From: a virus
DNA length: 35,961 nt
IMG/VR virus record: IMGVR_UViG_3300005825_000044
Location: 1 to 35,961 of that record
Reading direction: 5' to 3' (one strand)
In this document: positions 10,792-31,121 of the stretch, piece after piece
Numbering within the stretch: position 1 is the stretch's first letter
Layout of the letters: every line of letters begins with the position of its first letter
The notes under the pieces: generated by a model
The model's database searches: none
The model's input: the letters and a program-made list of their open reading frames with translations, nothing else
Told to the model about the DNA's origin: nothing
Made by a program: the position numbers and the translations under genes

Positions 10792-10815
10792 GCGTGTCTC
10801 CTCGAGGAGACACGC
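10792..10815. repeat. dispersed palindrome copy 1 (GCGTGTCTCCTCGAGGAGACACGC, perfect 24 bp)
   Basis: Read directly; immediately after the polymerase stop. Confidence 0.95.
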
Positions 10816-13596
10816 TCAGCGCTCCAGCACGACGGTTCCCGGGAACCGCTTCTCCAGGTCGAGCGCCGCAGTCGTGGATACTCGGGGCCCGTCCATCACG
10901 GCGACCTGCCCGTCGTCAGCCTCTACCCGGATCACGACGGGCACCGCGCCCGGAGCGGAGCCGAGCACGGCGTCCCTGAAGCGCACCATCGCGTCGCGGT
11001 CGTCGAACGCGCCGAACCCCGCGACGACCCGGCGCACGCCGGAGTCGGAGACATCCCCACCGAACAGCGGGAGGTCGTCGACCCTGCCGCGGTCCCTGGT
11101 CCTCTTCTCGTCCAGCTCGCGCGCCTTGCGCTGGGCCGCGGACTCCACCCAGACGAGGTCGGGATACACGACGTCGAGGATCCGCGCGCACGGTGGGTAG
11201 ACGCGGCTCTCCCAGTAGTAGACCCGGTCGATCTTCTCGAGCGCGCCCGGATCCCTCGCAGGCACGACCGCGTCTTCGTCGCGCACGATGCGAGTACCGC
11301 AGCCCCTGCACTTGCCGGCGCCCGACGGTACGGGCTCCCCGCACGCGGGGCAGTCCGGCGCGACCGTGAGGTACTCGACCCGTGTACCGGCCCTGACGTC
11401 CTCGCCGCGCTCCCGGAGTACGTGCGCGACCCTGACGTGCGCCGGCTGCTTCGCCACCTTGCGCGGGGTCTTGCACCTCGGGCACGCCTCGGGACCGTCG
11501 GCGACCGCCACGGAGTCGAACTCCCTCCCGCACTTCGCGGCGCCGCGACTACCGGAGCACTTCCGAGTCGTGTAGCGGAGCGCGTACTCGCCGAGGTCCT
11601 TCACGCTCTGACTCAGCACGACGTCGTCGACCTCCAGGTCACCCTCGAGCACACGTCGCTTCCAGCGCTCGACGAACCCCTGCATGGACTCCGCGAACGG
11701 GAGGTCGGGTTCCAGCAGCGCGGTGATCAACTCGTACTGCATCTCGCGCGCGATCCTGATCACGTCGCCGCGCTTGTACTCCAGCCCCTTGACCTCGGGC
11801 TTCATCTCGCTGCCGGCCGCCTTGCCCTTGTAGACCGCGAATGAGCCGGCGTACCGCTTCGCGGAGACCAGCACGAGCCGCTTGAACGACTTCTCGAACT
11901 CGAGCCTCACGTAGCTCCTGTCGCAGCCGTGCTCCGCGAGCAGCCGCGGCCACTCCTCGTTCAGGTCGTCGACGAGCCTCGCGAACTTCGCGCGGGTCCC
12001 CGTCACGAACACAGAGTCGGTGTCCCCGTAGAACGCCTCGAGCCCGGCCGCCCGGGACCGTGCAGCGACGAGCTTGATCAGGTGCGCCCCGGTCTTCGTC
12101 ACGGACTCCGCGACGGCGCGGTCGAAGTACCGCGTGTAGGGCGAGCCGAGGATCCCGTAGAAGCTGTTCGCGACGATCTTGAACGCCTGGCTCAGCCTCT
12201 TGAAGCGGTCGAACGTCGGCGAGCCGGGCTCCGCCGCGTCTGCCCTCTTCGTGTACTCGCCGCGCGTCGCGACGAGCCGGTCCAGAGCGAGCGGGAACAT
12301 ACCGCGGGGACCGACGCGGAACCGCGGCGCAGTCGCGGACTCGTAGAGCTGGCTGCACACGCCGACTCCTTCGGGGTCCGGCGCGCGCGCGTGAACGATC
12401 GTCTCCGGCGACATGTTCCAGCTCCGGATGATCGACGGGTACAGGCTCGCGAAGTCGCAGACGTGGACGTCGTCGATCGCGCCGAGCCGCGTCGGCTCCA
12501 TGACGTAGGCACCACTGTACTGCTCGAACAGCTCGGGCTTCGGCGGCTTCGTCGGCCAGCGGTGACCGTGCTCCACCCCGAGCCGCAGCAGGAACCCGTC
12601 ACCCTGCCGGCCGGCCTGGAGCGAGCGGGTGTCGGGGAAGCACCTCGTGATCGCGCACACCGCGTAGTGCAGCGCGGTGTACCCGGTCTTCTCCTCGATC
12701 GCTGGCATCAGCCTGGCGTCCTGCAGGTTGTACGCCGCGAGACGGGCGCGACCCTCGGCGCCGCTCTCCCAGACCTCCCACGTCCGACTCGCGTCGAAGT
12801 CGGTCTTGCCGCGGCCGAGAAGCACGTGCGCGACCGCGTTCAGCGCGAAGCTCTGCTTCTCCTCGCCGCTCTCGTGCGCGTGCGCGTTGTACTTCTTGTG
12901 CACCTCCATCTGGTCGAGCCAGTTCCACCGCTCCCACAGCGGAGGCTTGCCGCCGGGAGTGATGCGGAGCTTCGCCGCGCGCTCGGAGAGCACCGGGAAA
13001 TCGAAGCCGTCGCCGTTCCAAGCGAGCGCGACGTCGTACGGCCGCAGCCACTCCAGCAGGGACTCCAGCAGCGCGCGCTCCGCCGCGTCGGTGTCCGCCG
13101 CGAGGACCTCGACACCCTCCCTGCCGCGCTGGTCGACCGCCGCCCACGAGAGTATGCGAGCCTTGCCGGCACGCATCTCGTCGAACGTCTTCCGAGAGTC
13201 GACCTCGAGGTCGAAGTACGCTGCCAGCGGAGCGTCGGAGATCTTCAGCCCCCCGTTGTCGCTGAGCATCCTGCGCAGCGGGTCGACGTCGGCCTCGTAG
13301 ATCCGGGGACCCTGCTCTCCGGCCGCGCGCATCATCGACGCGGACATCTCGCCGAGGTTCCAGACCACGTCCTTGCGAGCCCAGCGGTTTCTGAAGTCGA
13401 TCCGCACGACGCCGTGCTCGTCGACGCTGAGCCCGCGCACCTCCCGGATCCTCTCCATCTCGCGACGGTCGTCGTCGTCGAAGCCGGAGAAGAACGCGGA
13501 CCACTTCGCGGGGAAGCTCCTGATCCGCGCGTCTTCTCCGGACCTCTCGATCAGGTAGACCCGATCGTCGTCATGCCACCCGCCGACGAGAGCCAC
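10816..13596 (-). CDS. polB: family B DNA polymerase with proofreading exonuclease
   Basis: ExoI FDLEVD, ExoII WNGDGFDFP, ExoIII YNLQDA; polymerase motifs DFASLYPSII, KIVANSFYG, YGDTDS, KRYA, KGLE. Confidence 0.97.
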   Translation of the reverse strand: MALVGGWHDDDRVYLIERSGEDARIRSFPAKWSAFFSGFDDDDRREMERIREVRGLSVDEHGVVRIDFRNRWARKDVVWNLGEMSASMMRAAGEQGPRIYEADVDPLRRMLSDNGGLKISDAPLAAYFDLEVDSRKTFDEMRAGKARILSWAAVDQRGREGVEVLAADTDAAERALLESLLEWLRPYDVALAWNGDGFDFPVLSERAAKLRITPGGKPPLWERWNWLDQMEVHKKYNAHAHESGEEKQSFALNAVAHVLLGRGKTDFDASRTWEVWESGAEGRARLAAYNLQDARLMPAIEEKTGYTALHYAVCAITRCFPDTRSLQAGRQGDGFLLRLGVEHGHRWPTKPPKPELFEQYSGAYVMEPTRLGAIDDVHVCDFASLYPSIIRSWNMSPETIVHARAPDPEGVGVCSQLYESATAPRFRVGPRGMFPLALDRLVATRGEYTKRADAAEPGSPTFDRFKRLSQAFKIVANSFYGILGSPYTRYFDRAVAESVTKTGAHLIKLVAARSRAAGLEAFYGDTDSVFVTGTRAKFARLVDDLNEEWPRLLAEHGCDRSYVRLEFEKSFKRLVLVSAKRYAGSFAVYKGKAAGSEMKPEVKGLEYKRGDVIRIAREMQYELITALLEPDLPFAESMQGFVERWKRRVLEGDLEVDDVVLSQSVKDLGEYALRYTTRKCSGSRGAAKCGREFDSVAVADGPEACPRCKTPRKVAKQPAHVRVAHVLRERGEDVRAGTRVEYLTVAPDCPACGEPVPSGAGKCRGCGTRIVRDEDAVVPARDPGALEKIDRVYYWESRVYPPCARILDVVYPDLVWVESAAQRKARELDEKRTRDRGRVDDLPLFGGDVSDSGVRRVVAGFGAFDDRDAMVRFRDAVLGSAPGAVPVVIRVEADDGQVAVMDGPRVSTTAALDLEKRFPGTVVLER

Positions 13597-13600
13597 GCTG

Positions 13601-14617
13601 CTACTTCGCCCGGACGAAGGACGCGACGAGACCGCCGAGCGTCTTGTGCTTGCCCTTGCCGTCGATCTTCAGCGCGATGTCGAGCACGACTTCCTTGCTG
13701 ATCGGGATCCTCACGTAGCAGTTGTCGACCACGATGTTGAACGAGCCAGCGTTCTTCAGCTCACGCCCGGTCTTCCCGCCGACGAACTTGTGAGTCTTCG
13801 GCTTGCCGTCGACCTTCGCGAGCAGCGTGATCTCCCCGTCCTTCTTCTTCTCGGGCACCGACGCCGCGGCCTTCGGCTTCTTCCCGAGCTTCGCGTCCCG
13901 CTTCTCCCTGACCTCTGCCGTGACCTCGCGCGCAGTCGCGCCGCCGCGAGCCTTCTTCGTCAGCTCCTCGCGCTCCTCTGCGTCAGACACCGTCGCGAGT
14001 GAGCGCAGCTTCTGGTAGCCGACCTCGTCGTAGTCCTTCCGAGAGAACCGGTCGGCGATGCTCATCAGGGAGTACATCGTGGTCCGCGCGAACGGCACCT
14101 CGTCGGACTCGCAGAACGCCTTGAACGTCTTGTGTCCCTTGCTCTTGTAGAGCTGCTTGTCGTGGATCCTCTTGACGATCACACCCATCTCGTAGCTGTA
14201 GCCGACCACTCCGCGTTTCATCTCGCAGAGCTTCTCGATCAGCGCGTCGAGCACTGCGGCGCCGTCGTTCGCGAGCGGCGCGTCCTGCTCAGGCTCCGGC
14301 TCAGGCTCGTCCTGCACGACCTCCGCGACGTGCTCCTCCCCGTCAGTGGTGATGACGTCGCCCCGCGACCCGCAGAACGGACAGAACTCCGTCGCGTCCG
14401 TGCTCCGCTCCCCGCAGTCCTCGCACTCGAGGTGGTCGTCCTCGGCGACCTCCGCGAGCAGCGTGCCGACGTGGGCCCGCACCGCACCGAGGACCTCGTC
14501 GTGCTTGTCCTTGCCGCGGGGCAGCTTCAGACCGACCGCCTTCGCGAACTCGCGCATCGCGTCGATCTTCGGGAGCGCCTTCGTTGATGTTTCCTTCTTC
14601 GCCTTCGCCACGTTCAT
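13601..14617 (-). CDS. Lys-rich putative DNA-binding protein with Zn ribbon and DUF3102-like segment
   Basis: CEDCG...CPFCG; YEMG..VKRI......YK..G..TF..FC......R.T.Y.LM.IA pattern. Confidence 0.55.
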   Translation of the reverse strand: MNVAKAKKETSTKALPKIDAMREFAKAVGLKLPRGKDKHDEVLGAVRAHVGTLLAEVAEDDHLECEDCGERSTDATEFCPFCGSRGDVITTDGEEHVAEVVQDEPEPEPEQDAPLANDGAAVLDALIEKLCEMKRGVVGYSYEMGVIVKRIHDKQLYKSKGHKTFKAFCESDEVPFARTTMYSLMSIADRFSRKDYDEVGYQKLRSLATVSDAEEREELTKKARGGATAREVTAEVREKRDAKLGKKPKAAASVPEKKKDGEITLLAKVDGKPKTHKFVGGKTGRELKNAGSFNIVVDNCYVRIPISKEVVLDIALKIDGKGKHKTLGGLVASFVRAK

Positions 14618-15213
14618 TCTCCTCTCGCTGCGGCGACGAACGCGTCGACCGCCTGTTTTCTCCTGCGCCGCTCACTGCGAACGGAGCCGTCGACCTTCCC
14701 TGCCGCGTACCGGGTGACCGTCGCGGCGTGACTCGCCGAGATCTTACCGAGCGCACGGTGATAGGCGCGCGACGCGTCGATGCGCTCATCCACGTCGTAC
14801 GACCGCCCGACGTCATCACCACTGATTAGTCGAACGCTCTCCGGTGATTGGTGATGACTGCTGTCAACCCTATTATTCCCGACCACGACGTCGAGCACCG
14901 GGGCACGCTCGACGAAGCGAAGCTCTCCGTGGAAACGCGTGTGCGAGCTGCGCTTCACTTTCAGCAGCTTGTACTGCCACCACCGCCCGACGTAGAAGCT
15001 CAGCTTCCCGCGCGTGGGATCCCACGAGTTGATCGTGTTCCACAGCTCGATCAGCAGCTCCTGCTCGATGTCCTCGATCTCGCCGTGGGCCACCCACGGA
15101 GCCGCGACCCTGCGGATCAGGCCGCGGTGAGCGCGCACCAGACAGTCGAAGCTGAGCGTCCCCGCAGCGACGGACTCGAGGTCGTCGTTCCACCGCTTCC
15201 AGCGGGGGCTCAC
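14614..15213 (-). CDS. sigma70-family (region 2) transcription factor
   Basis: GTG at 15213 overlaps the uvrD stop; LVRAHRGLIRRVA...EDIEQELLIELWNTINSWDPTRGKLSFY is a sigma region 2 signature. Region 4 is not clearly recognisable. Confidence 0.75.
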   Translation of the reverse strand: MSPRWKRWNDDLESVAAGTLSFDCLVRAHRGLIRRVAAPWVAHGEIEDIEQELLIELWNTINSWDPTRGKLSFYVGRWWQYKLLKVKRSSHTRFHGELRFVERAPVLDVVVGNNRVDSSHHQSPESVRLISGDDVGRSYDVDERIDASRAYHRALGKISASHAATVTRYAAGKVDGSVRSERRRRKQAVDAFVAAARGE

Positions 15214-18020
15214 GACGCACCCCCGGCGACCGCGTCGCGCGTCGCCAGCATGTCCGTGACAGGTTTCAGGAACGGGCTCGGTCCCAGCTCCACGACCTTC
15301 TCGCCGACGACGGCGCCCTCGACGTACGAGACCCAGAGCGCGTCGCGCGCTCGGGTCACGCCGACGTAGAACAGCCTGCGCTCCTCCTCGAGGTCCTCCG
15401 CTCGAACGTGCGGGAGGATCTTCTCGTTGGCCCCGATCACGTGGACGACGGGCCACTCCAGACCCTTGCTCTTGTGCAGCGTGGACAGCGTCACGGTCGA
15501 GCGCCGACTCCCGCGCCGCTTCGCAGCCTCCGCGCGCTCCAGCACGTCGTCGACGTGGTCGAGGAACCCCGTGACCGTGCCGAACCTGCCGGCGCACCGG
15601 ATCAGCTCGCGCACGTTGCTGACCCGCGCGTTCTCCACCGTCTCCTCGCCCTCGTTGCGGACGAGGTAACGCATGTAGTCGGTCTCCACCGTCAGCTCGG
15701 TGAGCAGGCTTTCCGGAGCGCGCTCGATCCTCTCGGCGAGCGAGTCGACGAGACCTGCCCACGAGACCGCGCTCGAGACCTGCCGCTGCTGCAGGCCCGA
15801 CCTACCACCCGCCGCGAAGGAGCGCGCCAGCGCCGCCCACTCCGGCCCGACTGCACCACCACCGGCACGCTCGAGCCCGTCAAGGAACGCCCTGCCGAGG
15901 TAGCGGAACGGGGTGTTGATGCACCGCCGCACGTCATCGAACCCACCGCGGCCCTCCGCTACCCGGATGTACGCGAGCAGGTCCTTGACCTCCTTGCGGT
16001 TGTAGAAGTTCGTGCCACCGACGACGAAGTACGGCACGTTCTCCGCGAGACATGCCTCCTCCACGGCTCGGCTCTGCGCGTTCGTGCGGTACAGCACCGC
16101 GAAGTCCTGCCACGACCGACCGTCGACCACAGCCTCCTTGATCAGCTTCACGACGGCGCGACCCTCCGCGTCGAAGTCGGCCTCGCGGAAGACCCCGACG
16201 CTGCCGCTCTCCTCCCGGGTCGCGCGCATCTCCGTCCCGAGCGTGGAGCCCGGGGCCATCGTGCGCATCACAGCGTTCGCGGCATCGACGATGGCGCCCG
16301 CCGACCTGTAGTTCGCGTCGAGTGCCACGACCCGGGCACCCGGCCACTCCCGCTCGAAGTGCGTCAGCACGTCCGACGACGCGCCGCGCCACCCGTAGAT
16401 GCTGTTGAGAACCACAACTCCGTTGGCCGCATACGCGTGATCTTTCTCGACATCCAACGAGTAGACCGGGCCGTCATACTGAGCCGTGTCATGGCCCGAA
16501 ACCGGAGCCCATGCGTTCTGAGCGTCAGGCAGCGGCAGCGACATCAGCTCGGGCAAAACGTTGGATGCGTACACCGCGAAGTACGTTCCGCGGACGTACG
16601 CCGCGTCAGGGTCGTCGGTTTGCGTTCTCGGGAACGGCCAAATCGGGTGGCCCGGTAAGAGCCCGTGATCGGACAGGCACCTACGCCCAGCAGCGTCATT
16701 GTTCTCACGCACCAGCCGGTGACCGAAGACCATGCCGATCGCGTCTGCGGTCTGGTGGGCGGCGCCCTCTACCGGCTCAAACGTGGCCGTGGGAATACCG
16801 TAGCCGGCAGCGATCACGCTCTCGTACACGCTGGCGTCGGTCCGCCCCGTATGGACAGCCAAGATCCACACACCGTCGGCCTTTTCGATCTTGGCGCGTT
16901 GGGCCAGATGAAAGCCGCGCGATCCGTCACCGCCGCCGGAAAAAAGCTTGCACCACCCGACTCGGTAACCGAACCCATCGCGGTGCATCAGGTAGGTGAC
17001 GCAATCGTCCACGCCGCGATCAGTCCACCGTGCCATGACCTTGTGGTTGGAGGTCATCGGAACCGAGCGGCCGCCGACAGAGATCGTGTGCAGCGTTCCC
17101 GTGTACGAGCGGCATTGGACGTTGATCACGCGTCCGCTGATCATCTTTTGCGCGTTGCGGTTCCAGCCGCGAACTCTGTCGCCATCGCGCAGGCGTTCGA
17201 TCGGAGTAACAACGCCCGGTTCGCTCTCGATCATGACCCCCGGCGGGTGACACTGCGCGGGGTCGCCAACGACCATGTAGCGACGATGGTCGCGCGCCAG
17301 CGACGACGCGATCTCGGTCTGCACCGGGCTCTCGTCCTGCGCCTCGTCCTGCAGCACGTGGTCCCACTTCGCGGCCCAGCGCTCTCTCACCTCGTCGTTG
17401 CGGAGCAGCACCGCGGCGTCGAGCAGCATGTCGTCGAACGTCAGCAGCCCCTTCGCGTGGCGGCCCTGCTCAGCAGCGGCGTACGCCATCCGCAGCAGCG
17501 TGGGGTCGCGCTGCAGACACGGCCGCTGCCTGTGGAAGTCGGCAGAGAACGGCTCGAGCCGGGGGTCGTCGTGAGCGATTCCGCGAGCCTTCGCGAGCCC
17601 GATGAAGTGCGACACGACCGTGGGGTCGCCGTTCTTCCAGTCCAACCCGCGGTACCCCAGCGCGTCCTTGACGACGATCCTGTACCTGTCGGAGTCGTCG
17701 ACCTCGTAGCCGCGGAGGTCGTGACGCTCCGCGCGCACCAGCTCGAGCGCGAGCGAGTGGAAGGTGCCGACCCGAGCGTCCTCCGCCCCGTACTCGTCGA
17801 GACGATCCAGCATCTCGCGGGCCGCGCGCTGACTGAACGTCACCGCGAGGATCCGTTCGGGGTCGACGCCGCTCTCGATCAGCCGCGCGATCCGCGCGAC
17901 GAGCGTCCGTGTCTTGCCGCAGCCCGCTACAGCGGGGACCGCGATCGGCCCGTCCGTGTGTGCCACCACCGCGAGCTGGTGCTCGTTCAAACCACGCATG
18001 TATCCGCCGTCTCCCGCCAT
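15210..18020 (-). CDS. uvrD: UvrD/PcrA SF1 helicase containing an intein
   Basis: LNEHQ, AVAGCGKT, VTF, TFHS, DEAQD, VGDPAQ|SIYGWRGA, NYRS, VLYRTN, TLHKSKGLEW, EERRLFYVGVTRA. ATG at 18020 has SD GAGGAGG. Confidence 0.95.
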   Translation of the reverse strand: MAGDGGYMRGLNEHQLAVVAHTDGPIAVPAVAGCGKTRTLVARIARLIESGVDPERILAVTFSQRAAREMLDRLDEYGAEDARVGTFHSLALELVRAERHDLRGYEVDDSDRYRIVVKDALGYRGLDWKNGDPTVVSHFIGLAKARGIAHDDPRLEPFSADFHRQRPCLQRDPTLLRMAYAAAEQGRHAKGLLTFDDMLLDAAVLLRNDEVRERWAAKWDHVLQDEAQDESPVQTEIASSLARDHRRYMVVGDPAQCHPPGVMIESEPGVVTPIERLRDGDRVRGWNRNAQKMISGRVINVQCRSYTGTLHTISVGGRSVPMTSNHKVMARWTDRGVDDCVTYLMHRDGFGYRVGWCKLFSGGGDGSRGFHLAQRAKIEKADGVWILAVHTGRTDASVYESVIAAGYGIPTATFEPVEGAAHQTADAIGMVFGHRLVRENNDAAGRRCLSDHGLLPGHPIWPFPRTQTDDPDAAYVRGTYFAVYASNVLPELMSLPLPDAQNAWAPVSGHDTAQYDGPVYSLDVEKDHAYAANGVVVLNSIYGWRGASSDVLTHFEREWPGARVVALDANYRSAGAIVDAANAVMRTMAPGSTLGTEMRATREESGSVGVFREADFDAEGRAVVKLIKEAVVDGRSWQDFAVLYRTNAQSRAVEEACLAENVPYFVVGGTNFYNRKEVKDLLAYIRVAEGRGGFDDVRRCINTPFRYLGRAFLDGLERAGGGAVGPEWAALARSFAAGGRSGLQQRQVSSAVSWAGLVDSLAERIERAPESLLTELTVETDYMRYLVRNEGEETVENARVSNVRELIRCAGRFGTVTGFLDHVDDVLERAEAAKRRGSRRSTVTLSTLHKSKGLEWPVVHVIGANEKILPHVRAEDLEEERRLFYVGVTRARDALWVSYVEGAVVGEKVVELGPSPFLKPVTDMLATRDAVAGGAS
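16404..17252 (-). mobile_element. intein (283 aa) in UvrD motif III
   Basis: Interrupts GDPAQ/SIYGWRG; begins with Cys (CHPPG), block B MTSNHKV, block F/G VYSLDVEKDHAYAANGVVVLN, +1 Ser; visibly more A/T-ending codons. Confidence 0.95.
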
Positions 18021-18113
18021 CGGGATCCTCCTCGTGTTGGGCGCATCGCCCAGGATTTCCACGTCTCCCCCGAACCCATACCCGGGCGCGGGGATCAAAG
18101 GACTACCGGAACC

Positions 18114-18623: not shown

Positions 18624-18631
18624 CGTTCCTT

Positions 18632-18664
18632 GCTCTCTTTCCGGCCGTCTCGCGGCCTAGCCCT
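18632..18664. repeat. 33-bp intergenic direct repeat, copy 1
   Basis: GCTCTCTTTCCGGCCGTCTCGCGGCCTAGCCCT, identical to 18892-18924. Confidence 0.97.
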
Positions 18665-18884: not shown

Positions 18885-18891
18885 CGTCCCC

Positions 18892-18924
18892 GCTCTCTTT
18901 CCGGCCGTCTCGCGGCCTAGCCCT
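18892..18924. repeat. 33-bp intergenic direct repeat, copy 2
   Basis: Exact match to 18632-18664. Confidence 0.97.
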
Positions 18925-19178: not shown

Positions 19179-19207
19179 ACTATAAACCCAGCCCCGGGGG
19201 GTGTCCA
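19179..19207 (-). promoter_or_regulatory. sigma70-type promoter TGGACA-N17-TATAGT
   Basis: Twin of 1928-1956; AT-rich tract upstream at 19211-19224. Confidence 0.85.
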
Positions 19208-19234: not shown

Positions 19235-20188
19235 CTACGTGTCCCCTCGAGGAGACACGGCGCCGAGTCCCCAGAGCGCTGCCCGGAGCGCGCTCTCCGG
19301 GGCGTCGTCCGGGGACTGCTCGAGCCGCAGCCGGACGACCTCGAGCCGCCGGCCCAGGGTCTGCTCCACCGCCCGGGCCGCGGCGTCACCGGCGTCGTCG
19401 GGGTCCGTCGCGACGACGAGTCTCCGGAACCTGCTCAGCACCGCGGCCTTGCCCGGGGTCACCGCGGATCCCAGCAGCGCGCAGGGGTTCACCGCGCCGG
19501 CGCGCTCCAGCGCGAGCGCCGACCACACACCCTCCGCGACGGTCGCTGTGTCGGCACCGTCGAAGCCGGGCTCTCCGAAGACCGCGAGGTCGTCGCGCGC
19601 GCCGTCGGAGCGACGCGCCATGTCGTAGCGCCTCGCGTCTTCGAGGTAGCTCCGCGCGCTCCACGTCCGGAGCGCGCCCGCGGTGTACACCGGCACGACG
19701 ACCCGGTGCTGCAGCTTGCCGCGCGTTGCGTAGCCGACACCCCAACGCAGGACCTGATCCCAGCTCGCGCGCCGCAGCACGTAGCGCAGCGCGGGCTCAA
19801 ACCACTGCCGCTGCTCGCGCGGGAACTCGACGCCGGCGGGAAACGCGAGGTGGGAGTGCCGCACCACGAGACGGGAGACGACGCGGGGCACCGACGCGTC
19901 GCGCGGGATGTCCTCACCGCGCGCGAAGCCACGAACGAACGCGCGGGCCTCGCGCACCGAGACGCCGCGCACCGCCGCGACGAGGTCCCAGAGCCCGCCG
20001 CCGAAGCCGCAGCTCTTGCAGAGGTGGAAGCCGTGCCGCTTCTCCCCGGGGTCGTCGCGCACAAACCAGCTCGGGTGCTTGTCGTCGTGGTCCGGAGACG
20101 GGCACCGCGCGAGCCACTTCGTGCGACCGCTACGCTTCGCGTCGATGCCGAGCGCCTCGAGCAGCGCGCCGACGTCAGGAGCCGGCAC
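19235..20188 (-). CDS. dnaG: DNA primase (CHC2 zinc finger + TOPRIM)
   Basis: CPSPDHDDKHPS...CKSCG zinc finger; TOPRIM AEG and DPDDAG; adjacent to dnaB. Confidence 0.9.
   Translation of the reverse strand: MPAPDVGALLEALGIDAKRSGRTKWLARCPSPDHDDKHPSWFVRDDPGEKRHGFHLCKSCGFGGGLWDLVAAVRGVSVREARAFVRGFARGEDIPRDASVPRVVSRLVVRHSHLAFPAGVEFPREQRQWFEPALRYVLRRASWDQVLRWGVGYATRGKLQHRVVVPVYTAGALRTWSARSYLEDARRYDMARRSDGARDDLAVFGEPGFDGADTATVAEGVWSALALERAGAVNPCALLGSAVTPGKAAVLSRFRRLVVATDPDDAGDAAARAVEQTLGRRLEVVRLRLEQSPDDAPESALRAALWGLGAVSPRGDT
19238..19259. repeat. dispersed palindrome copy 2 (CGTGTCCCCTCGAGGAGACACG)
   Basis: Encodes the last primase codons (VSPRGDT*); ~30 bp upstream of the -35 box. Confidence 0.95.
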
Positions 20189-22105: not shown

Positions 22106-22350
22106 TTCCCCGCGAGGTCGCGCTCGAACTCCTCGACAGCGGCTCGACCGTGACGCTCAGCCCGAGCGCGCAGGAACGCGTAGACGCGCTCGTACTCCAC
22201 CTCGACGTCGTCGCCCTCCACGAGCTGCCGCGTGTACCAGGCACCACCGATGGTGATCGAGCTGTACGTGCCAGGCGGGCTGATCTTCTGCTCCGGGTAC
22301 TTCACGACGAGCGTGTCGCCGTCACGCGCAACCAGTTTCACCTCTGCCAT
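22102..22350 (-). CDS. hypothetical protein (82 aa)
   Basis: SD GGAGG before the ATG; overlaps its neighbours. Confidence 0.7.
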   Translation of the reverse strand: MAEVKLVARDGDTLVVKYPEQKISPPGTYSSITIGGAWYTRQLVEGDDVEVEYERVYAFLRARAERHGRAAVEEFERDLAGK

Positions 22351-23876
22351 CTGCGTTCCTCCTTCGGTTCAAACCGTACCCACTGGCCGGCGCGAAGGAC
22401 CTCGACGTCGCCGTCGTTCCACGCCGCGAGCTTCTTGACCTGGTCCGGGAAGACGTGCCGGTCCCAGACGTAGTACAGGAACGCGCGATCCTTGCCCGGG
22501 GCGCTGCGGCAGATCCTGCCGCGGACCTGACCGAAGAACTGGCGGTTATTACCGATCGGCGTCGCGCAGATCCCGGACCGGAGCCGCGGCATGTCGATAC
22601 CGACCCCGATCGCCTGGTAGGTGCCGGCCACGGCCTCGACGAGACCGCGCTCGACGAACGCGCTCGCCTCGTCAAAGCGGTCGGACTGCCCGCCGACCAT
22701 CACGCCGCAGCGCAGCCCGGCGTCGACGAGCATCCGCTCCACGTCGTCGACGTGCTCCCTGCGGTGCGAGAACACGAGCACGGGCGCGGCAGAGCCGTCG
22801 CCCCACTGGCCGCTGCTGCGCTCCCCGCCGGCGACGTCGCGCACCACGTCCCGGATCAGCGCGTCGCGCGCTCGATCTGCGATCACCTCGTCGACCAGGC
22901 GCTTGTGGTCCTTCTCGGCGCCGCGTGCGCGCCTGTACCACTCCGCCTCGAAGTCGCTCGGGACGACGCGGACCGTCACCGGCACGTTGAAGCCCGACTC
23001 GATCACGGCCGACCTGTCGATCTCGGCGATCACCGGGCCGAAGACGTCGTACGTCAGCCGCTCCTTGCCGTCGTTCCTGGTCTCGTCCGCGGAGAACCCG
23101 ACGCGGAGCATCGCGGGGAACGCGTCGACGATCTCGAACACGGTCCGCGCCGGGACCTCCTGGATCTCGTCGACGAGCACGACGTCGAAGTGCCGGACGA
23201 AGTCGACGAGCGGAAACCGCTTCGCCCACAGGCTCTGCTGCAGCGCCAGCGTGAGCCGCTCCCCGACGCGGTGCTTCTTCCCGCCGGCGATCACCCCGAT
23301 CTCGTCGGGCCGCAGACCGAGGTGGCGAACAGCCTTCTTGTGCCACTGCTCGAGCAGCTTCGCGGAGCGCATGATCGCGACGACCCTGCCGCGGCTCGCC
23401 GCAGCGAGCGCGAGCGCGATGTGCGTCTTCCCGCCACCGGTCGCGGCGCGGACGATCCCCTGCTGCTTCTCGAGGCAGACCCGGAGAGCGTCGCGCTGCA
23501 GCTCGAACAACTCCGCTGCGGGGTCGTCGGGGTCCGCAGTGAACGGCGGCCACTCAACGTCGGGGCCCCGGACTCGTCGGTCCTGCAGGCGCAGCGGGAT
23601 GCCGTGGCGCTTGGCAGCCGCGCGCAGTTTCGCAAGCGAACCACGGCCAAGCGTGAACACCCCGTCGTCTTGGTCGATCCGCCACGTCGAGAGCTTCGAC
23701 GGGAGGTGGCCGGTGTACCGGCCCATCGCCTTGAGCTTCGCGCGGTCCGGGTTCGCGTACGACGTCTCGGCCTTCAGCTCGGACAGGAACGGCGCGATGT
23801 CCGACGCGCGAGTGTACCCCTGCGGATCGACCCGGAGTCGGTTGTCGACGACGACGTTCGCGAACTTGTTCTGCAC
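22338..23876 (-). CDS. SF2 helicase (UvsW/ResIII/XPB-like)
   Basis: Q motif, ATGGGKT, VDEIQ, GFSA, GIDMP, QVRGRICR. Confidence 0.9.
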   Translation of the reverse strand: MQNKFANVVVDNRLRVDPQGYTRASDIAPFLSELKAETSYANPDRAKLKAMGRYTGHLPSKLSTWRIDQDDGVFTLGRGSLAKLRAAAKRHGIPLRLQDRRVRGPDVEWPPFTADPDDPAAELFELQRDALRVCLEKQQGIVRAATGGGKTHIALALAAASRGRVVAIMRSAKLLEQWHKKAVRHLGLRPDEIGVIAGGKKHRVGERLTLALQQSLWAKRFPLVDFVRHFDVVLVDEIQEVPARTVFEIVDAFPAMLRVGFSADETRNDGKERLTYDVFGPVIAEIDRSAVIESGFNVPVTVRVVPSDFEAEWYRRARGAEKDHKRLVDEVIADRARDALIRDVVRDVAGGERSSGQWGDGSAAPVLVFSHRREHVDDVERMLVDAGLRCGVMVGGQSDRFDEASAFVERGLVEAVAGTYQAIGVGIDMPRLRSGICATPIGNNRQFFGQVRGRICRSAPGKDRAFLYYVWDRHVFPDQVKKLAAWNDGDVEVLRAGQWVRFEPKEERRWQR

Positions 23877-23927
23877 CGCACCTCAAACGTACCGCCCCGC
23901 GACGCTTCTCGGATCCTGAGAGCAGCG

Positions 23928-23945
23928 TGTCTCCTCGAGGGGACA
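23928..23945. repeat. dispersed palindrome copy 3 (TGTCTCCTCGAGGGGACA)
   Basis: Read directly. Confidence 0.95.
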
Positions 23946-24014
23946 AACTTCCACGCCGCTCTCGGATCCGAGATCACACCACTCGTCGTCCGCGCGGTGC
24001 CCCACCGCGCGGTT

Positions 24015-24040
24015 ACTCCTTTCGCGTTAGCGAAAGGAGT
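24015..24040. terminator. perfect 11-bp hairpin ACTCCTTTCGC-GTTA-GCGAAAGGAGT
   Basis: Stem read directly; only a short T run on the plus strand, so terminator function is uncertain. Confidence 0.35.
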
Positions 24041-24227
24041 TTAGAACTAGATCAACCTCTGATCCGAATGAGGGATCTAGGAGGATCAACCTCAGTTAAC
24101 CCTACGGCCGGATCCGGCCGAGTTAAGTGATCCGGCCGGATCACGTTAATAGGCCCGGCGCGCGCGCGCGCGTCCTTATAACGTCAAGAATATAAACGAA
24201 GCCCTGACGTTTCCAAGCTTCTGGAAA

Positions 24228-24245
24228 TGTCCCCTCGAGGGGACA
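24228..24245. repeat. dispersed palindrome copy 4 (TGTCCCCTCGAGGGGACA, perfect)
   Basis: 3 bp after the stop of the last structural gene. Confidence 0.95.
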
Positions 24246-24248
24246 CCG

Positions 24249-25877
24249 TCAGTCGTTGCGCGGGCCGGGGTCGAGGATCGTCACACCGACCGCGTACACG
24301 GTATCGCCGACAGCGCCGGAGTTGACCACGGCGTCGTAGAAGGTCGTCTCGGTATCGATGTTGGTCTCCCCTGACGCACCGACGTTGACGTTCTGCAATC
24401 CGGTGCCGGACGTCGTGTCGCTGTTCTCGTTGCTCGTCGTCGGGGCTGTCGGAGTGGACCACGAAATGCCGGACCTCTTCTGGAGGTAGACGGTGCTCGG
24501 GTTGCCGCCGTCGGTCGCCAAGATCAGTACGTCGATCGCCTGGAGGGTGCAGCCGTACGGGATCCTCAGACCGAGCCGGAGCACCTTGTTGACCCCCGTA
24601 GAGACCCAGTTGCCGGAGCCGTCGAGCGCCCAGCCCCCCTCGTCGCCGTCCGCCCACGAGATCGGCACGATGTACCGAACGGATCGAGTCGGCGAGTATT
24701 TGTAGTGGCCGCCGGCGTAGTAGTTGCCGAACTGACCGGAGCCCGCGGTCGGCGTCTTCTGCCACGGGTCGACGCCCGCTGTAGCGCCGGGCTCCATGTA
24801 GTAGTTACCGAAGCTCCCAGTGGTCGCACCCAGCGTGGACCGGAGCATCTGACTCGGATACGTCGCGTACTCCTGGGACCACTCCAGCGCGGCGGGGTCC
24901 CAGGACGCGTTAAGCGTGAGGGCGAAGTGACCCAGAGTGTTGAGCGACCCGGCGTAGAGTCGGATCGTGACCCCGTTGTCTCCAGTCGGGAACCGGGCAA
25001 GCTCCTTCCACTTGTTCGTGGCCTCGGGGTCGTCGCCGGGTACCTTCGTCGTCTTGATCAGCGGGACGTCTGCGGCGTCGGTGTCGACGACCTGACCCGC
25101 AGTGAAGACGTTCGCGCGGTTCTGGTGGGCAGCGACGTCGTTCACGTGGGCGAGAAGCTCGGTGAACACCGCGAGCACGGTGCCCGACGACAGCGAGAGC
25201 GGCGCGTCCGTGATGCCGGCGACCGGCACGGTGCCGCCGCTGAACCCGTTCAGCAGGTCGAGGAACGCCTGCAGCACGTCGCTGAGCTTCCGCTGCCGAA
25301 CCTCGGTCGGTGACCCCGTCAGCGCGAAGATGACCTCGGAGCGGTCGGTGTGGATGTCGGAGTCCGCGATCGCTGTGATGCCGTTGGTCAGCAGGACGTC
25401 GGCGACCAGGATCTCGTCGCCGCGCAGCGGAGGTCGGGCGCCGGCACCCGTCGCGGCTTCCGCTGCCTGGACGACGTGGATCTCGTAGCTGTCGTTCTCC
25501 TCGAGGAAGACGTCGTCGCCGTTGCCGTCCTCGCGGGGGTCCGCGTACGTCTTCTTGAACGCGACGAAGATCGATACCCACTTCTCGTCGTCGCCGAGCG
25601 GCAGCGTCGCGACGCTGTCCTCGTCCACCGAGAGGTCGACGTTCTGGATCGACGCCCACCTGATCTGGTTGCCGACCTGGTCGTAGACCACAGCGGGCGA
25701 GGAGAGGTCGACCGTGAGGTTCTGCGGGGAGTGCTCCGCCGCAGCCGCCCCGACGGCGATCCCGACGTAGTCGAACGCCGCGACGAACTCCTTGAACGCG
25801 TTCTCCACGGCGTCGAACGCCGCGTTGAACTCGGAGTTTCTGAACTTGTGCTTGTAGTAGGTCCTGATCCGCTGCAT
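24249..25877 (-). CDS. putative tail fibre / receptor-binding protein
   Basis: Last gene of the baseplate module; G/S/T/N-rich beta-type C-terminus. Confidence 0.55.
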   Translation of the reverse strand: MQRIRTYYKHKFRNSEFNAAFDAVENAFKEFVAAFDYVGIAVGAAAAEHSPQNLTVDLSSPAVVYDQVGNQIRWASIQNVDLSVDEDSVATLPLGDDEKWVSIFVAFKKTYADPREDGNGDDVFLEENDSYEIHVVQAAEAATGAGARPPLRGDEILVADVLLTNGITAIADSDIHTDRSEVIFALTGSPTEVRQRKLSDVLQAFLDLLNGFSGGTVPVAGITDAPLSLSSGTVLAVFTELLAHVNDVAAHQNRANVFTAGQVVDTDAADVPLIKTTKVPGDDPEATNKWKELARFPTGDNGVTIRLYAGSLNTLGHFALTLNASWDPAALEWSQEYATYPSQMLRSTLGATTGSFGNYYMEPGATAGVDPWQKTPTAGSGQFGNYYAGGHYKYSPTRSVRYIVPISWADGDEGGWALDGSGNWVSTGVNKVLRLGLRIPYGCTLQAIDVLILATDGGNPSTVYLQKRSGISWSTPTAPTTSNENSDTTSGTGLQNVNVGASGETNIDTETTFYDAVVNSGAVGDTVYAVGVTILDPGPRND

Positions 25878-25920
25878 GGACCCGAGGCTACACCGCGCCG
25901 CGCCGCGTCGTCAGCCGCCG

Positions 25921-28040: not shown

Positions 28041-28049
28041 GGCTCACCG

Positions 28050-28781: not shown

Positions 28782-28791
28782 GCAGCCGAGA

Positions 28792-29595
28792 CTACACCGT
28801 GGCCATGACGAACGACCACCACTCCTCGGGGTCTCGCTTCACGTAGTGCTTCCCGCTGCCGTCGTCGTCGAGCGCGATCGCGGCACCACCGACGTAGGCC
28901 GCGAGCTTGAACGTGAGCCCCGTGACGGGGACGTCGCGCGTGAAGTACAGCACGCCCTCGACGAGCGGGCTCGGCAGTGCTCCGCCGACGTTCGCGAGCA
29001 CTACCCCCTTGCCGGAGAACAGCATGGGGTCCGGCGCTTCCGCGAGGCTGAACACCTCCGACGACGAGTCCGCGCGGACCTCCACGGGGGCAGCGACCGC
29101 CTCGAAGTCCTCGAGACCGCCGTCAGACAGGATCGTGTTGGTGGCGTCGAGCCCGATGATATCCGACCAGTCGAACCACTCCTGCGCGACGCCGGTGAAC
29201 AGAGCGGCCGACGAGTTGTCCTCGTCGAGGTCGGCGACGTAGCCGCCCCACGCGTCGAAGTCCTCGAGCCCCAGCGAGTCGAACTGCGCGGCACCCGTCG
29301 CGGAGAGGTCGTCGAGCACCTGGCCCCACCCGACCTCGAAGTCCTCGCGGAGCGTCTGCCCGGCCCCGGCGTTGAAGATCGCAGCGACGGGGTCCACGAG
29401 CGCGCCGACGAACACGAGGTCACCGGAGACCGCCCAGCCTGCCTCGAACCCCTCGTACGTGAAGAGGTCGCTGCCCGACGGGTTGCCGTCGAACTCCGCC
29501 GCCTCCTCGAGGCTGCTCACGAACGACGAAGTCCAACCCGAGGCGAGCCACGCAGTAGCGCCGGCAGTCTCGAAGTCTCCGTTCTCGATCGCCAT
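28792..29595 (-). CDS. acidic hypothetical structural protein
   Basis: TGATG overlap with baseplate J; IENGDFE start and repeated E(D/G)FE motifs. Confidence 0.65.
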   Translation of the reverse strand: MAIENGDFETAGATAWLASGWTSSFVSSLEEAAEFDGNPSGSDLFTYEGFEAGWAVSGDLVFVGALVDPVAAIFNAGAGQTLREDFEVGWGQVLDDLSATGAAQFDSLGLEDFDAWGGYVADLDEDNSSAALFTGVAQEWFDWSDIIGLDATNTILSDGGLEDFEAVAAPVEVRADSSSEVFSLAEAPDPMLFSGKGVVLANVGGALPSPLVEGVLYFTRDVPVTGLTFKLAAYVGGAAIALDDDGSGKHYVKRDPEEWWSFVMATV

Positions 29596-31088
29596 CAGAT
29601 CTGCGCCCCGGTGATCGCGTTGATCAGAGTCACGGTGCCGAGCTGCGGGAACTCGTCCGCCTTGAGGTCGACGTCGGACGACGCCCCGTTGAGCTGGAAG
29701 TGCCCCGGCGCGTCGTCGATCTTGCGGACCCCCGTCGTGTCGCGCACCACGTCATAGACGTCGCTGTACGCGAGCGATCCGTCCATCAGGTAGCCGAAGT
29801 CGACGCTGTCGTTCTGCGAGCCGTCCTCGTTCTCGACAGCGAAGAACGCGACGAGACGCGCGCGGATGCTGGCGCTCAGCGTGGCGAGACGCGCTGTGGT
29901 CTGCCAGTCGCTCCGGGGGTGGACCCACGCGAGCACGTCGACGGTCTTGAACGTGGCGCCCGAGGCGTTGACCACGAACGTCGTCATGTGCGGGAAGGTC
30001 GTGCGGACCTGCTCCTCAGCCTCCGCGAGCAGCGAGTCGGACGGCGTGCCGCCGCCGCGCGGGATTATGACGAGCTTGCCCTGGTTGACCGCGACGCTCG
30101 GCTTCTCCGTGCGGCTCAGCATCAGCGCGCGGCCGACCGCGGTCAGCTTCAGCGCGTGCGCCTCGAAGTCGGGGCGCGCCACGCTCCGGCTCAGCGCGGG
30201 GACCGACGCCGGGGCGCGCTCCCGGATCGACTCCAGGCTCTGCCGGTCCGCGCCGGTGACGGTGCGGGTACCGTTCGAGACCGTCATCTTGACCGGGTTC
30301 GAGAGCGAGTCGGAGTACGACTTGTCGACGCGCTGCACAGAGCCGGGGTCGACGTTGCCGTCGGCACCGCCGCCGACCTTGTAGACCGGGACGATCGTCC
30401 CGCTCGGGATCACACCGGCGACCCCTGAGCCGAACGTCAGCGTGGCGCGCCCCGACTCGTCGACGCTGACCGTGACGTGCCGGTCGGTGGGTCCCGAGGT
30501 CAGGAAGTTCTTCTCCACCGTGAACGCGCCAACGTCGTCGCTGACCGACAGGCTCCCGTCGAGGAACGGGACCTCGGAGAGCACCACGGTCTGCCGTGGC
30601 CGACCCGTGGCCTGGAAGCTGTCCGTAGCGCTCCTGCTGTGCTCCGCCTCCACGATCATCGTGGGCGGGTCCATCGCTGCGGGGAACGTCACGTCGGCCA
30701 GCACCTGGAGCTTCACCGGGTCAGCGCCGAGGGTCGAGAACGTGTCCCCGGCCTGCACCGTGACGCTGCCGACCGGGGGGCTCGCCAGCGTAAGCGTGAT
30801 CTCGTGGAGTGCCGCGACCTGCCCGGCCGGGACGTAGCCGACGAGCCGCACCAGACCGAGCATCACCTTGCGGAGCTTGGCGGTGCCGATGCGGGCCTCC
30901 GCCGCTTGGTTGTCCTGGTAGTACAGCAGCACGTCGCCGACGAACGCGAACATGTCGAGGAGCATGTTCCCGAAGTTGACGACGTTCTCCTCGGTCCAGT
31001 CCGGGAACACCGACTCGATCAGGGAGCGGAGCCGCGCGCGCAGCGAGTCGAAGTCCTTGTCCGTGTAGTCAACACCGGGCCTGATCAT
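29595..31088 (-). CDS. baseplate J / gp6-like wedge protein
   Basis: DYTDKDFDSLR...WT...FG.ML...AFVGDVL.YYQD..A.E, FG.G..G.IP, GGG..GNV, R.V...DFE; SD GGAGG before ATG at 31088. Confidence 0.92.
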   Translation of the reverse strand: MIRPGVDYTDKDFDSLRARLRSLIESVFPDWTEENVVNFGNMLLDMFAFVGDVLLYYQDNQAAEARIGTAKLRKVMLGLVRLVGYVPAGQVAALHEITLTLASPPVGSVTVQAGDTFSTLGADPVKLQVLADVTFPAAMDPPTMIVEAEHSRSATDSFQATGRPRQTVVLSEVPFLDGSLSVSDDVGAFTVEKNFLTSGPTDRHVTVSVDESGRATLTFGSGVAGVIPSGTIVPVYKVGGGADGNVDPGSVQRVDKSYSDSLSNPVKMTVSNGTRTVTGADRQSLESIRERAPASVPALSRSVARPDFEAHALKLTAVGRALMLSRTEKPSVAVNQGKLVIIPRGGGTPSDSLLAEAEEQVRTTFPHMTTFVVNASGATFKTVDVLAWVHPRSDWQTTARLATLSASIRARLVAFFAVENEDGSQNDSVDFGYLMDGSLAYSDVYDVVRDTTGVRKIDDAPGHFQLNGASSDVDLKADEFPQLGTVTLINAITGAQI

Positions 31089-31101
31089 GTGGCGTACCTC
31101 C

Positions 31102-31121
31102 GTGTCCCCTCGAGGAGACAC
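31102..31121. repeat. dispersed palindrome copy 5 (GTGTCCCCTCGAGGAGACAC)
   Basis: Between the gp25 stop and the baseplate J SD. Confidence 0.95.

What the first reader, a model, noticed from the sequence alone, without database searches (positions are those of the whole stretch)
10792..31121. 18-bp palindrome TGTCYCCTCGAGGRGACA marks five gene/operon junctions in both modules
Seen: core copies at 10795-10812, 19240-19257, 23928-23945, 24228-24245 and 31103-31120. Only the two symmetric positions (5 and 14) vary, and only as Y and R. Four copies sit within a few bp of a stop codon (polB, primase, fibre, gp25), and the primase copy is embedded in its final codons. Copies also lie next to a promoter, next to the baseplate J SD, and at both ends of the origin-like region. 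Inference: this is a phage-wide cis-acting system, probably the site of a dimeric protein (operator/stoperator-type repressor, parS-like or DNA-organising site). In-window candidates are the RHH (7325-7546), HTH (1978-2226) and DUF3102-like proteins. An RNA hairpin or processing site is the alternative: on the transcribed strand two copies are perfect (U-A versus C-G), two have a U-G wobble and one has a C-A mismatch. I do not recognise it as a known motif.
Basis: partly seen in the sequence, partly recalled or inferred. Interest (0 to 1): 0.85.

Follow-up and report, generated by a model that had tools for sequence, protein, structure and literature searches.

The report
Genome-specific palindromes punctuating a phage
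An uncultivated 100-kb lytic-type phage carries 17 near-identical copies of one 20-22-base DNA palindrome, mostly at gene ends and rather evenly spaced; each relative has its own version, so it is most likely the docking site of an unidentified paired DNA-binding protein, a kind of phage feature seen before but never explained.

Summary
All five copies are at the stated coordinates (0 expected by chance), and the 101.6-kb virus record holds 17.

The core extends to CGTGTCYCC-TCGA-GGRGACACG. It is a property of a whole phage clade. Eight long relatives (PolB 35-57% identical) each carry 5-23 copies of their own dyad, with at least six different sequences.

What the copies share:
- They are enriched at gene 3' ends (P 1e-5 to 1e-7 in five genomes).
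- They are spaced more evenly than random gene ends (combined P about 1e-6).
- Conservation is strictly symmetric, through the centre.
- None has a U-tract.
- Half-sites vary independently, giving C·A, G·A and U·C mispairs on the transcript.
- The asymmetric version in one relative occurs in both orientations.

This favours a double-stranded DNA site for a two-fold-symmetric protein (about 0.5) over an RNA hairpin (about 0.2).

The reader protein was not found:
- The window's supposed RHH, HTH and DUF3102 candidates have no support.
- There is no ParB, RAYT or integrase.
- No phage protein tracks the motif type.

The host genome catalogue shows only chance-level matches.

The closest known cases are the unexplained 17-18-bp repeats of Cluster O and EG actinophages. 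This scan already reported the element on another window of this genome (e1-5344326) and similar ones in other phages.

The parts
10795..10812 (.). Palindrome copy 1 (22-bp dyad 10793-10814). It lies 3 nt after the PolB stop and about 49 nt before the ATG of the UvsY-like gene, and is followed by a GGTATCGGTT promoter-type box.
19240..19257 (.). Palindrome copy 2 (22-bp dyad 19238-19259). It is embedded in the last codons of the primase gene (reads VSPRGDT, stop at 19235-19237). Its pair is U-G on the minus strand.
23928..23945 (.). Palindrome copy 3, 60 nt (centre) upstream of the SF2 helicase start. It has a C-A mismatch on the minus strand, and the RNA hairpin is no better than shuffles (-8.7 kcal/mol, z 0.25).
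24228..24245 (.). Palindrome copy 4, 3 nt after the stop of the fibre-like ORF, followed by a sigma-70-like promoter.
31103..31120 (.). Palindrome copy 5, 5 nt after the gp25-like stop, abutting the GGAGG/ATG of the baseplate J gene.
10816..13596 (-). Family B DNA polymerase. Its 3' junction carries a palindrome in G0, G1 and G6.
19235..20188 (-). DnaG-type primase (Toprim plus CHC2 zinc finger). The C-terminal tail that holds the palindrome is not conserved in orthologues.
22338..23876 (-). SF2 (ResIII/Helicase_C) helicase. A palindrome lies 27-160 nt upstream of its start in five of eight clade genomes.
23946..24227 (.). Non-coding, GATC-rich control or origin-like region, bracketed by copies 3 and 4.
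24249..25877 (-). Fibre-like ORF with no family match. Its orthologue in G1 also ends at a palindrome.
31126..31617 (-). gp25-like baseplate wedge gene. Its orthologue in G3 also ends at a palindrome.
29595..31088 (-). Baseplate J-like gene, downstream of copy 5.
19179..19207 (-). Sigma-70-like promoter (TGGACA-17-TATAGT) feeding a leaderless ATG, 33 nt downstream of copy 2.

Best explanation
The element is a 20-22-bp perfect dyad of double-stranded DNA. It most likely serves as the docking site of a two-fold-symmetric (dimeric) sequence-specific protein made or used during lytic growth.

About one site per 5 kb sits in the only unconstrained space of a tightly packed, one-directional genome. 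That space is just after a stop codon, or in the dispensable last codons of a gene. Several sites lie directly upstream of promoters.

I infer that the bound protein marks or insulates boundaries between expression units, or organises the chromosome. It may act as a roadblock or as a loading point for a regulator, in the way KorB uses its OB sites.

Shown here:
- The sites exist and are non-random.
- They are biased to gene ends.
- They are evenly spaced.
- Their conservation is symmetric.
- Their half-sites vary independently.
- Their orientation does not matter.
- Every relative has its own version.

Inferred, not shown: that a protein binds, which protein it is, and what the binding does.
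For: - Copy number. There are 17 copies in 101.6 kb against 0 expected. Conservation stops sharply and symmetrically at the dyad edges in seven genomes.
- Centre symmetry. The dyad is perfect through its centre (TCGA or CCGG). G0 and G6 share the arm GTCTCC but differ by a symmetric two-base change at the centre. A 4-nt RNA loop has no need for this.
- Half-sites. The variable position combines freely in G0: 9 T/A, 2 C/G, 3 U-G and 3 C-A on the transcript. In G3, 13 of 23 copies would carry a G·A or U·C mispair inside the stem. In G7, 16 of 17 copies are heterotypic, and they lie in both orientations with respect to transcription, 10-11 forward and 5 reverse.
- No terminator tail. Only 1 of 119 copies in seven genomes has 5 or more T in the 12 nt that follow.
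- Clade-wide. All eight long clade genomes have a genome-specific dyad with 5-23 copies.
- Placement. Gene-end enrichment has P 3e-7 to 2e-5 in five genomes. Spacing has CV 0.45-0.70 against 0.92 for random gene ends, Fisher P about 1e-6.
- Conserved junction. The junction upstream of the helicase keeps a site in five of eight genomes although the site sequence differs.
- Promoters. 5 of 17 sites are followed within 90 nt by a promoter box (P 0.005).
- Precedent. Cluster O and Cluster EG actinophage repeats were read the same way by their authors (PMC4351075, PMC7302621).
Against: - No reader protein was found. No ParB_N, DUF3102 or RAYT domain is present. XRE-type HTH proteins are solid only in G0 and G6.
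- G3, G4 and G5 share an identical 16-bp core but share no protein specific to them.
- Candidates tested do not track the motif type: the sigma-r4 protein, the TerS-like protein, the UvsY-like protein, the helicase N-domain and a core 160-aa protein.
- Perfect copies would also make stable RNA hairpins, -16 to -23 kcal/mol.
- Sitting right after stop codons is what a terminator or 3' stabiliser does.
- Site positions mostly turn over between relatives (13 shared junctions against 8.9 expected). This also fits a mobile element.
Confidence: 0.5

Rival explanations
1. The element acts as an RNA hairpin on the long minus-strand transcripts. It would be a U-tract-less terminator or attenuator, a processing site, or a 3'-end stabiliser that punctuates polycistronic mRNAs.
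For: - 11 of 17 copies lie within 45 nt of a stop codon, with similar fractions in relatives.
- Perfect copies fold at -16 to -23 kcal/mol, z -2 to -3.4.
- Some copies are followed by promoters, a terminator-then-promoter layout.
- Nearly all genes are on one strand.
Against: - No U-tract follows in 118 of 119 copies.
- The 9-bp stems are too short for RNase III-type sites.
- The sequence is invariant, including the self-complementary loop.
- C·A is as frequent as U·G on the transcript in G0 and is the majority in G7. Copies with G·A or U·C are common in G3.
- Copy 23928 folds no better than shuffles.
- There is no Rfam match.
Confidence: 0.2
2. The element acts as a DNA structure (cruciform, or hairpin on single-stranded DNA) or as a sequence signal for replication or recombination. 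Possible roles are dispersed origins, primosome or helicase loading points, or recombination hot spots feeding T4-style recombination-dependent replication.
For: - Spacing is even, at about 4-5 kb.
- The most conserved location is just upstream of the helicase gene. In G0 a pair of sites brackets an origin-like non-coding region there. G1 and G6 also have a pair upstream of the helicase gene.
- The phage encodes Mre11/Rad50-, RecA- and UvsY-like proteins, DnaB and a primase.
Against: - Most copies have no adjacent AT-rich unwinding region.
- 18-22-bp palindromes rarely extrude as cruciforms.
- Mismatched copies would weaken a structure-based signal.
- There is no evidence for a nickase or origin-binding protein, and the helicase N-domain does not track the motif type.
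Confidence: 0.12
3. The element is a selfish miniature palindrome (REP/MITE-like). It would spread to neutral gene-end positions and be homogenised by copying, with no service to the phage.
For: - Positions mostly are not conserved between relatives (13 shared against 8.9 expected).
- Copies sit in tolerant places: intergenic gaps and non-conserved C-terminal tails.
- Each genome has its own sequence.
Against: - There is no RAYT (Y1 transposase) in five genomes, no integrase or resolvase, and no flanking repeat beyond the dyad.
- Matches in 185,579 host-type genomes are at chance level.
- Spacing more even than random gene ends is not expected of a selfish element.
- The same 16-bp core persists across phages whose PolB is only about 36% identical. 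This argues for purifying selection.
Confidence: 0.08
4. The sites would be operators or stoperators of an immunity-type repressor, or a parS-like centromere, read by the small RHH or HTH proteins of the window.
For: - Many dispersed copies resemble stoperators and phiC31 conserved inverted repeats (the latter from my own knowledge).
- In G0 a HicB-HTH gene (G000 88437-88895) is bracketed by two copies, one abutting its promoter.
Against: - No integrase, serine recombinase or ParB_N domain is found.
- Sites are symmetric and orientation-free, unlike stoperators.
- The window ORFs 7325-7546 and 1978-2226 have no family support and no homologues in relatives.
- HicB-HTH is found only in G0.
Confidence: 0.05

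Closest known systems
17-bp dyad repeats of Cluster O mycobacteriophages (TGTTCGGNNNCCGAACA, more than 30 copies; PMC4351075)
   Same: - One invariant inverted repeat is scattered through a non-temperate phage genome.
- Many copies lie in short intergenic gaps and some in coding ends.
- Most are not tied to promoters.
- Orientation is irrelevant.
- The motif is absent from host genomes.
- The authors inferred a dimeric protein and left the function unknown.
- The outer arms TGTTC...GAACA equal those of relative G1's motif.
   Different: - The sequence and length differ (even, spacer-less 18-22 bp here).
- The phage type differs (100-kb myovirus with PolB and T4-like recombination genes, against a siphovirus).
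- No protein is shared consistently.
- Here the sites hug stop codons and are evenly spaced.
- Here relatives have switched to different motifs.
18-bp inverted repeats of Microbacterium Cluster EG phages (GATCAACCNNGGTTGATC, 8-10 copies; PMC7302621)
   Same: A conserved short dyad lies in short intergenic regions of an actinophage, and is kept although the flanking DNA diverges.
   Different: The EG repeats are start-associated (14-22 bp upstream of start codons) and confined to one genome arm. Here the sites are stop-associated and genome-wide.
Stoperators of Cluster A mycobacteriophages (PMC6550527, PMC9283540)
   Same: There are tens of dispersed sites at gene boundaries. The site sequence differs between related phages. 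They provide a mechanism for blocking elongating RNA polymerase.
   Different: Stoperators are asymmetric 13-14-mers, oriented with transcription and read by a monomeric immunity repressor of temperate phages. Here the sites are symmetric and orientation-free, and no integrase or repressor was found.
KorB and its palindromic OB operators on plasmid RK2 (PMC11790492); more widely ParB-parS
   Same: A dispersed palindromic site is read by a dimer that acts on promoters both near and far. The site density is about one per 5 kb (the RK2 copy number is from my own knowledge).
   Different: No ParB_N/CTPase domain protein is found in this phage at E<=1. The site sequence is unrelated.
REP elements with RAYT transposases
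   Same: Short palindromes sit just after stop codons, and each genome has its own sequence.
   Different: REPs are imperfect, host-chromosomal and accompanied by a RAYT gene. Here the dyads are perfect, there is no RAYT and they are not found as repeats in host-type genomes.

Membership tests
Intrinsic (Rho-independent) terminator | G+C-rich hairpin in the transcript | tested here: met
   Perfect copies fold at -16 to -23 kcal/mol. The C-A copy at 23928 does not.
Intrinsic (Rho-independent) terminator | U-tract directly after the stem | tested here: not met
   Only 1 of 119 copies in seven genomes has 5 or more T in the next 12 nt. The mean T count is at or below background.
Cluster A stoperator | Asymmetric site oriented with the direction of transcription | tested here: not met
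   Sites are dyad-symmetric. The one asymmetric version (G7) occurs 10-11 forward and 5 reverse.
Cluster A stoperator | Temperate phage with an immunity repressor and integrase | tested here: not met
   No Phage_integrase or Resolvase match in five genomes. No conserved repressor-like gene.
Cluster O / EG type dispersed dyad repeats of actinophages | One invariant short inverted repeat, many dispersed copies, mostly at gene boundaries, absent from host | tested here: met
   description in PMC4351075 and PMC7302621
Cluster O / EG type dispersed dyad repeats of actinophages | Same sequence motif or homologous phage backbone | tested here: not met
   The motif differs. phmmer of all clade proteins against the Corndog six-frame translation gives no consistent shared protein.
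ParB-parS / KorB-OB | ParB_N (CTPase) domain protein encoded with the sites | tested here: not met
   PF02195 gives no match at E<=1 in G000, while the control genomes do match.
REP/RAYT | Associated Y1 (RAYT) transposase | tested here: not met
   PF01797 gives no match in five clade genomes.
REP/RAYT | Repeat family present in the host chromosome | tested here: inconclusive
   There are 24 matches in 185,579 species genomes, which is chance level. One unrelated MAG has a different composite repeat with the same core. The true host is unknown and may be absent from the catalogue.
DUF3102-docked palindrome arrays (lead from earlier scan finding e1-5357242) | DUF3102 domain protein in the phage | tested here: not met
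   PF11300 gives no match at E<=1 in five clade genomes.
phiC31 conserved inverted repeats (repressor operators) | Binding by the phage repressor; temperate lifestyle | not testable with these tools
   The comparison rests on my own knowledge of Ingham et al. 1994 and Wilson et al. 1995, and those papers are not in the library. The absence of an integrase argues against a lysogenic repressor.
Known RNA families (Rfam) | Match at gathering score | tested here: not met
   0 matches in the window.

The most novel reading that the evidence does not exclude
The palindromes are one instance of a widespread, undescribed way in which lytic phages punctuate their chromosomes. Evenly spaced sites, whose sequence switches quickly between relatives, would be read by a DNA-binding protein of no recognised family. 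Either way the sites would insulate or organise expression units across the whole genome. The same logic would explain the Cluster O and EG repeats and the several similar arrays this scan has met in unrelated phages.
Probability: 0.3. Interest if true: 0.8.

Novelty: new variant of a known kind. Interest (0 to 1): 0.62.

Why it matters
Dispersed dyad repeats in phage genomes have been on record since at least 2015 without a reader protein or a function.

This clade offers a natural experiment. It has eight genomes with at least six motif sequences and one shared architecture, and one junction (upstream of the helicase) keeps a site while the site sequence changes.

That makes the reader protein findable by co-variation once more genomes are added. 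It also gives short, synthesisable probes for pull-down.

If the sites insulate transcription units or organise the chromosome, they are a general design principle of large lytic phages. They would also be a source of orthogonal protein-DNA pairs.

Tried and rejected
Readings rejected:
- Restriction-site explanation. CTCGAG is not avoided (168 copies against 144 expected).
- Host REP. Matches are at chance level in 185,579 genomes. The four contigs of MAG D_3_bin.27 carry an unrelated composite repeat, and viral contigs L005 and L006 are unrelated low-GC DNA.

Candidate reader proteins rejected:
- Sigma-70 region-4 small protein (G000 63789-64244). Its recognition helix (TRERVRQIE) is nearly identical in genomes with different motifs.
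- HicB-HTH. It is found only in G0.
- TerS-like protein upstream of TerL. It falls into two unrelated families that do not follow the motif type.
- Window ORF 10209-10745. It is UvsY-like.
- SF2 helicase N-domain. G3 groups with G0, not with the motif-sharing G4 and G5.
- Core 160-aa protein 21623-22105. The model is confident and all-helical (pLDDT 85), but has no fold match.
- ThyX, dCTP deaminase and a methyltransferase are the only extras that G3 shares with G4 or G5 and that the other clade genomes mostly lack.
- ParB_N, Y1_Tnp, DUF3102, integrase and resolvase are all absent.
- Corndog shares no consistent protein with the clade.

Searches that found nothing:
- Megablast against cultivated phages gave no match. 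The nearest PolB, 28% identical, is in haloarchaeal viruses.
- The metagenome scan for closer relatives returned only unrelated single-copy contigs. Insertion polymorphism therefore could not be examined.
- No paper contains any of the motif sequences in a relevant context.

A correction of my own: I first read G2 as lacking the system. That was wrong, because its dyad has an odd centre and escaped the even-palindrome count.
Full report
**1.

The pattern TGTCYCCTCGAGGRGACA occurs five times in the window, at the stated coordinates. None is expected in dinucleotide shuffles, and allowing three mismatches adds no further copy.

The window is the first 35,961 bases of a 101,615-bp IMG/VR virus record (68% G+C, CheckV 93% complete). 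That record holds 17 copies, 16 exact and one with a central C>T.

Read on the minus strand, which carries nearly all genes, most copies extend by CG on each side to a 22-bp perfect dyad.

- The PolB, fibre-like and gp25-like genes stop 3-5 nt before a copy.
- The primase reads through its copy (..VSPRGDT*).
- Copy 31103 abuts the ribosome-binding site of baseplate J.
- Copies 19240 and 24228 are followed by sigma-70-like promoters.
- Copies 23928 and 24228 bracket the non-coding region upstream of the helicase gene.

**2. Context**

The window encodes a T4-style replication and recombination set:
- SNF2 helicase
- DNA methylase
- Rad50- and Mre11-like proteins
- RecA
- a UvsY-like protein
- PolB
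- an ECF-like sigma factor
- a UvrD helicase with an intein
- primase, DnaB and an SF2 helicase

These are followed by tail-fibre and baseplate genes.

No cultivated phage is close. No integrase or serine recombinase is found in five genomes of the clade, so the phage looks lytic.

**3. The element belongs to a clade, not to one phage**

A PolB profile search recovered nine relatives, 35-57% identical. I fetched seven of these genomes whole. Each has its own dispersed dyad.

| Genome | Dyad | Copies |
|---|---|---|
| G0 (this phage) | CGTGTCYCC-TCGA-GGRGACACG | 17 |
| G1 | TGTTCAC-CCGG-GTGAACA | 21, all perfect |
| G3 | GGAAAC-CCGG-GTTTCC | 23 |
| G4 | GGAAAC-CCGG-GTTTCC | 18 |
| G5 | GGAAAC-CCGG-GTTTCC | 17 |
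| G6 (59% complete) | GTCTCC-CCGG-GGAGAC | 6 |
| G7 | GTGTCT-Y-CG-N-CG-R-AGACAC | 17 |
| G2 | ACGGATTAC-S-GTAATCCGT | 5, at 12.7-16.3-kb intervals |

I first misjudged G2 as lacking the system.

Other contigs carry many copies of the GGAAAC type.

**4. Placement**

I called genes with my own codon-usage gene caller. The centre of the dyad lies within 45 nt of a same-strand stop codon as follows, against a random expectation of about 12%.

| Genome | Copies near a stop | P |
|---|---|---|
| G0 | 11 of 17 | 3e-7 |
| G1 | 13 of 21 | 1e-7 |
| G3 | 13 of 23 | 1e-7 |
| G4 | 10 of 18 | 7e-6 |
| G5 | 10 of 17 | 2e-5 |
| G7 | 5 of 17 | 0.03 |
| G6 | 1 of 6 | 0.56 |

Other placement results:
- Where a copy lies in coding sequence, it occupies a C-terminal tail that is not conserved in orthologues.
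- Spacing is more even than for randomly chosen gene ends. The CV is 0.45-0.70 against 0.92, with P<=0.013 in G1, G3, G4 and G5, and Fisher P about 1e-6 over seven genomes.
- In G0, 5 of 17 copies are followed within 90 nt by a recognisable promoter box (P 0.005). The promoter classes used came from earlier notes of this scan.
- Positions are mostly not conserved between relatives, with 13 shared orthologous junctions against 8.9 expected.
- One junction is conserved. A dyad lies 27-160 nt upstream of the SF2 helicase start in G0, G1, G3, G4 and G5, although the dyad sequences differ. This was noticed post hoc among four landmarks.

**5. DNA site or RNA hairpin?**

Six points favour a double-stranded DNA site:
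- Conservation is strictly symmetric and ends at the dyad edges. There is no downstream box.
- There is no U-tract. Only 1 of 119 copies has 5 or more T in the next 12 nt.
- The dyad is perfect through its centre. G0 and G6 share an arm but differ by a symmetric pair of changes at the centre (TCGA against CCGG). A 4-nt RNA loop would not require this.
- The variable positions combine as independent half-sites and create mispairs on the transcript. G0 has 3 C·A against 3 U·G. G3 has 13 of 23 copies with G·A or U·C inside the stem.
- G7's dyad is consistently heterotypic (16 of 17, P 1e-4). It lies in both orientations, with the majority giving C·A. Its invariant central bases are therefore read irrespective of the transcribed strand.
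- Copy 23928 folds no better than shuffled sequence.

Three points keep the RNA reading alive:
- Perfect copies would form stable hairpins.
- The stop-codon location is what a terminator or 3' stabiliser would show.
- U-tract-less terminators are debated in high-G+C Gram-positive bacteria (my own knowledge).

There is no Rfam match.

**6. Who reads it?**

This was not resolved.
- DUF3102, ParB_N and RAYT are absent.
- The HicB-HTH gene bracketed by two copies is specific to G0.
- The sigma-r4 protein keeps the same recognition helix across motif types.
- TerS-like proteins, the helicase N-domain and a core 160-aa helical protein do not track the motif.
- G3, G4 and G5 share the same 16-bp core but share no specific protein, even in six-frame comparison.

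The host catalogue shows only chance-level matches, 24 in 185,579 species genomes.

**7. Comparison with what is known**

The nearest described cases are the 17-bp repeats of Cluster O mycobacteriophages and the 18-bp repeats of Microbacterium Cluster EG phages. Both are unexplained and were read by their authors as probable dimer sites (PMC4351075, PMC7302621).
- Stoperators differ. They are asymmetric, oriented and belong to temperate phages (PMC6550527, PMC9283540).
- KorB-OB is a functional analogue, but the ParB fold is not detected here (PMC11790492).
- No paper in the library contains these motif sequences in a relevant context.

This scan had already described the element on another window of this genome (e1-5344326). 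It has met similar arrays in other phages (e1-3293462, e1-5644863, e1-3443240, e1-5357242).

**8. Verdict**

This is a real, clade-wide, genome-specific dyad.
- It is most likely a protein docking site on DNA that marks gene-unit boundaries at regular intervals (0.5).
- An RNA hairpin role is the main rival (0.2).
- It is a new variant of a known but unexplained kind.

Noticed in passing
whole genome G000, window included: The hexamer GAGCTC is completely absent (0 against about 70 expected). CAGCTG is depleted (6 against 39). CTCGAG and CCCGGG are not depleted. This looks like avoidance of SacI- and PvuII-type restriction by the host.
   Followed up: partly
L028:15992-16900 (relative G2, record 3300032893_000018, 35993-36882): There is a CRISPR-like array of 13 copies of a 36-nt repeat (CCATCAACAGCCGCGCGAGGCTTCGAGTATCGCGAC). 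The spacers are variable, and the repeat period is 62-80 bp.
   Followed up: partly
window 15210-18098 (-): This UvrD-type helicase is interrupted by an intein-like insert (Intein_splicing hit at residues 303-565). The terminase large subunit (G000 91676-94246) also carries a LAGLIDADG/Hint insert.
   Followed up: no
window 14614-15213 (-); G000 87029-88423; G000 63789-64244 (+): There are three sigma-related genes: an ECF-like sigma conserved across the clade, a long sigma with extra C-terminal modules that contains a palindrome copy, and a region-4-only protein on the opposite strand.
   Followed up: partly
window 21623-22105 (-): A 160-aa protein is conserved in all eight clade genomes (37-50% identity). 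Its model is confident and all-helical (pLDDT 85), yet it has no PDB fold match and no Pfam or PHROG family.
   Followed up: partly
L068, L070, L072, L074 (MAG D_3_bin.27, about 50% G+C): An unrelated bacterial MAG carries a composite REP-like repeat. It begins with the same 18-mer (TGTCCCCTCGAGGGGACA) and is followed by a second hairpin.
   Followed up: partly
L005:2998-3015 and 3324-3341: An unrelated low-G+C viral contig has two copies of ATTTGTCTCCTCGAGGAGACAAAT flanking one small gene. This looks like an operator pair with the same core.
   Followed up: no
window 10209-10745 (-): The ORF after PolB resembles the UvsY recombination mediator in language-model features and predicted structure. 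With the RecA-, Mre11- and Rad50-like genes it completes a T4-style recombination set.
   Followed up: partly
L027:73-330 and L031 end (relative G2): Collagen-like G-X-Y repeat genes (GGCGCGCAGGG units) occur at several places. The same sequence is found at both ends of the record, which suggests a terminally redundant or circularly permuted genome.
   Followed up: no
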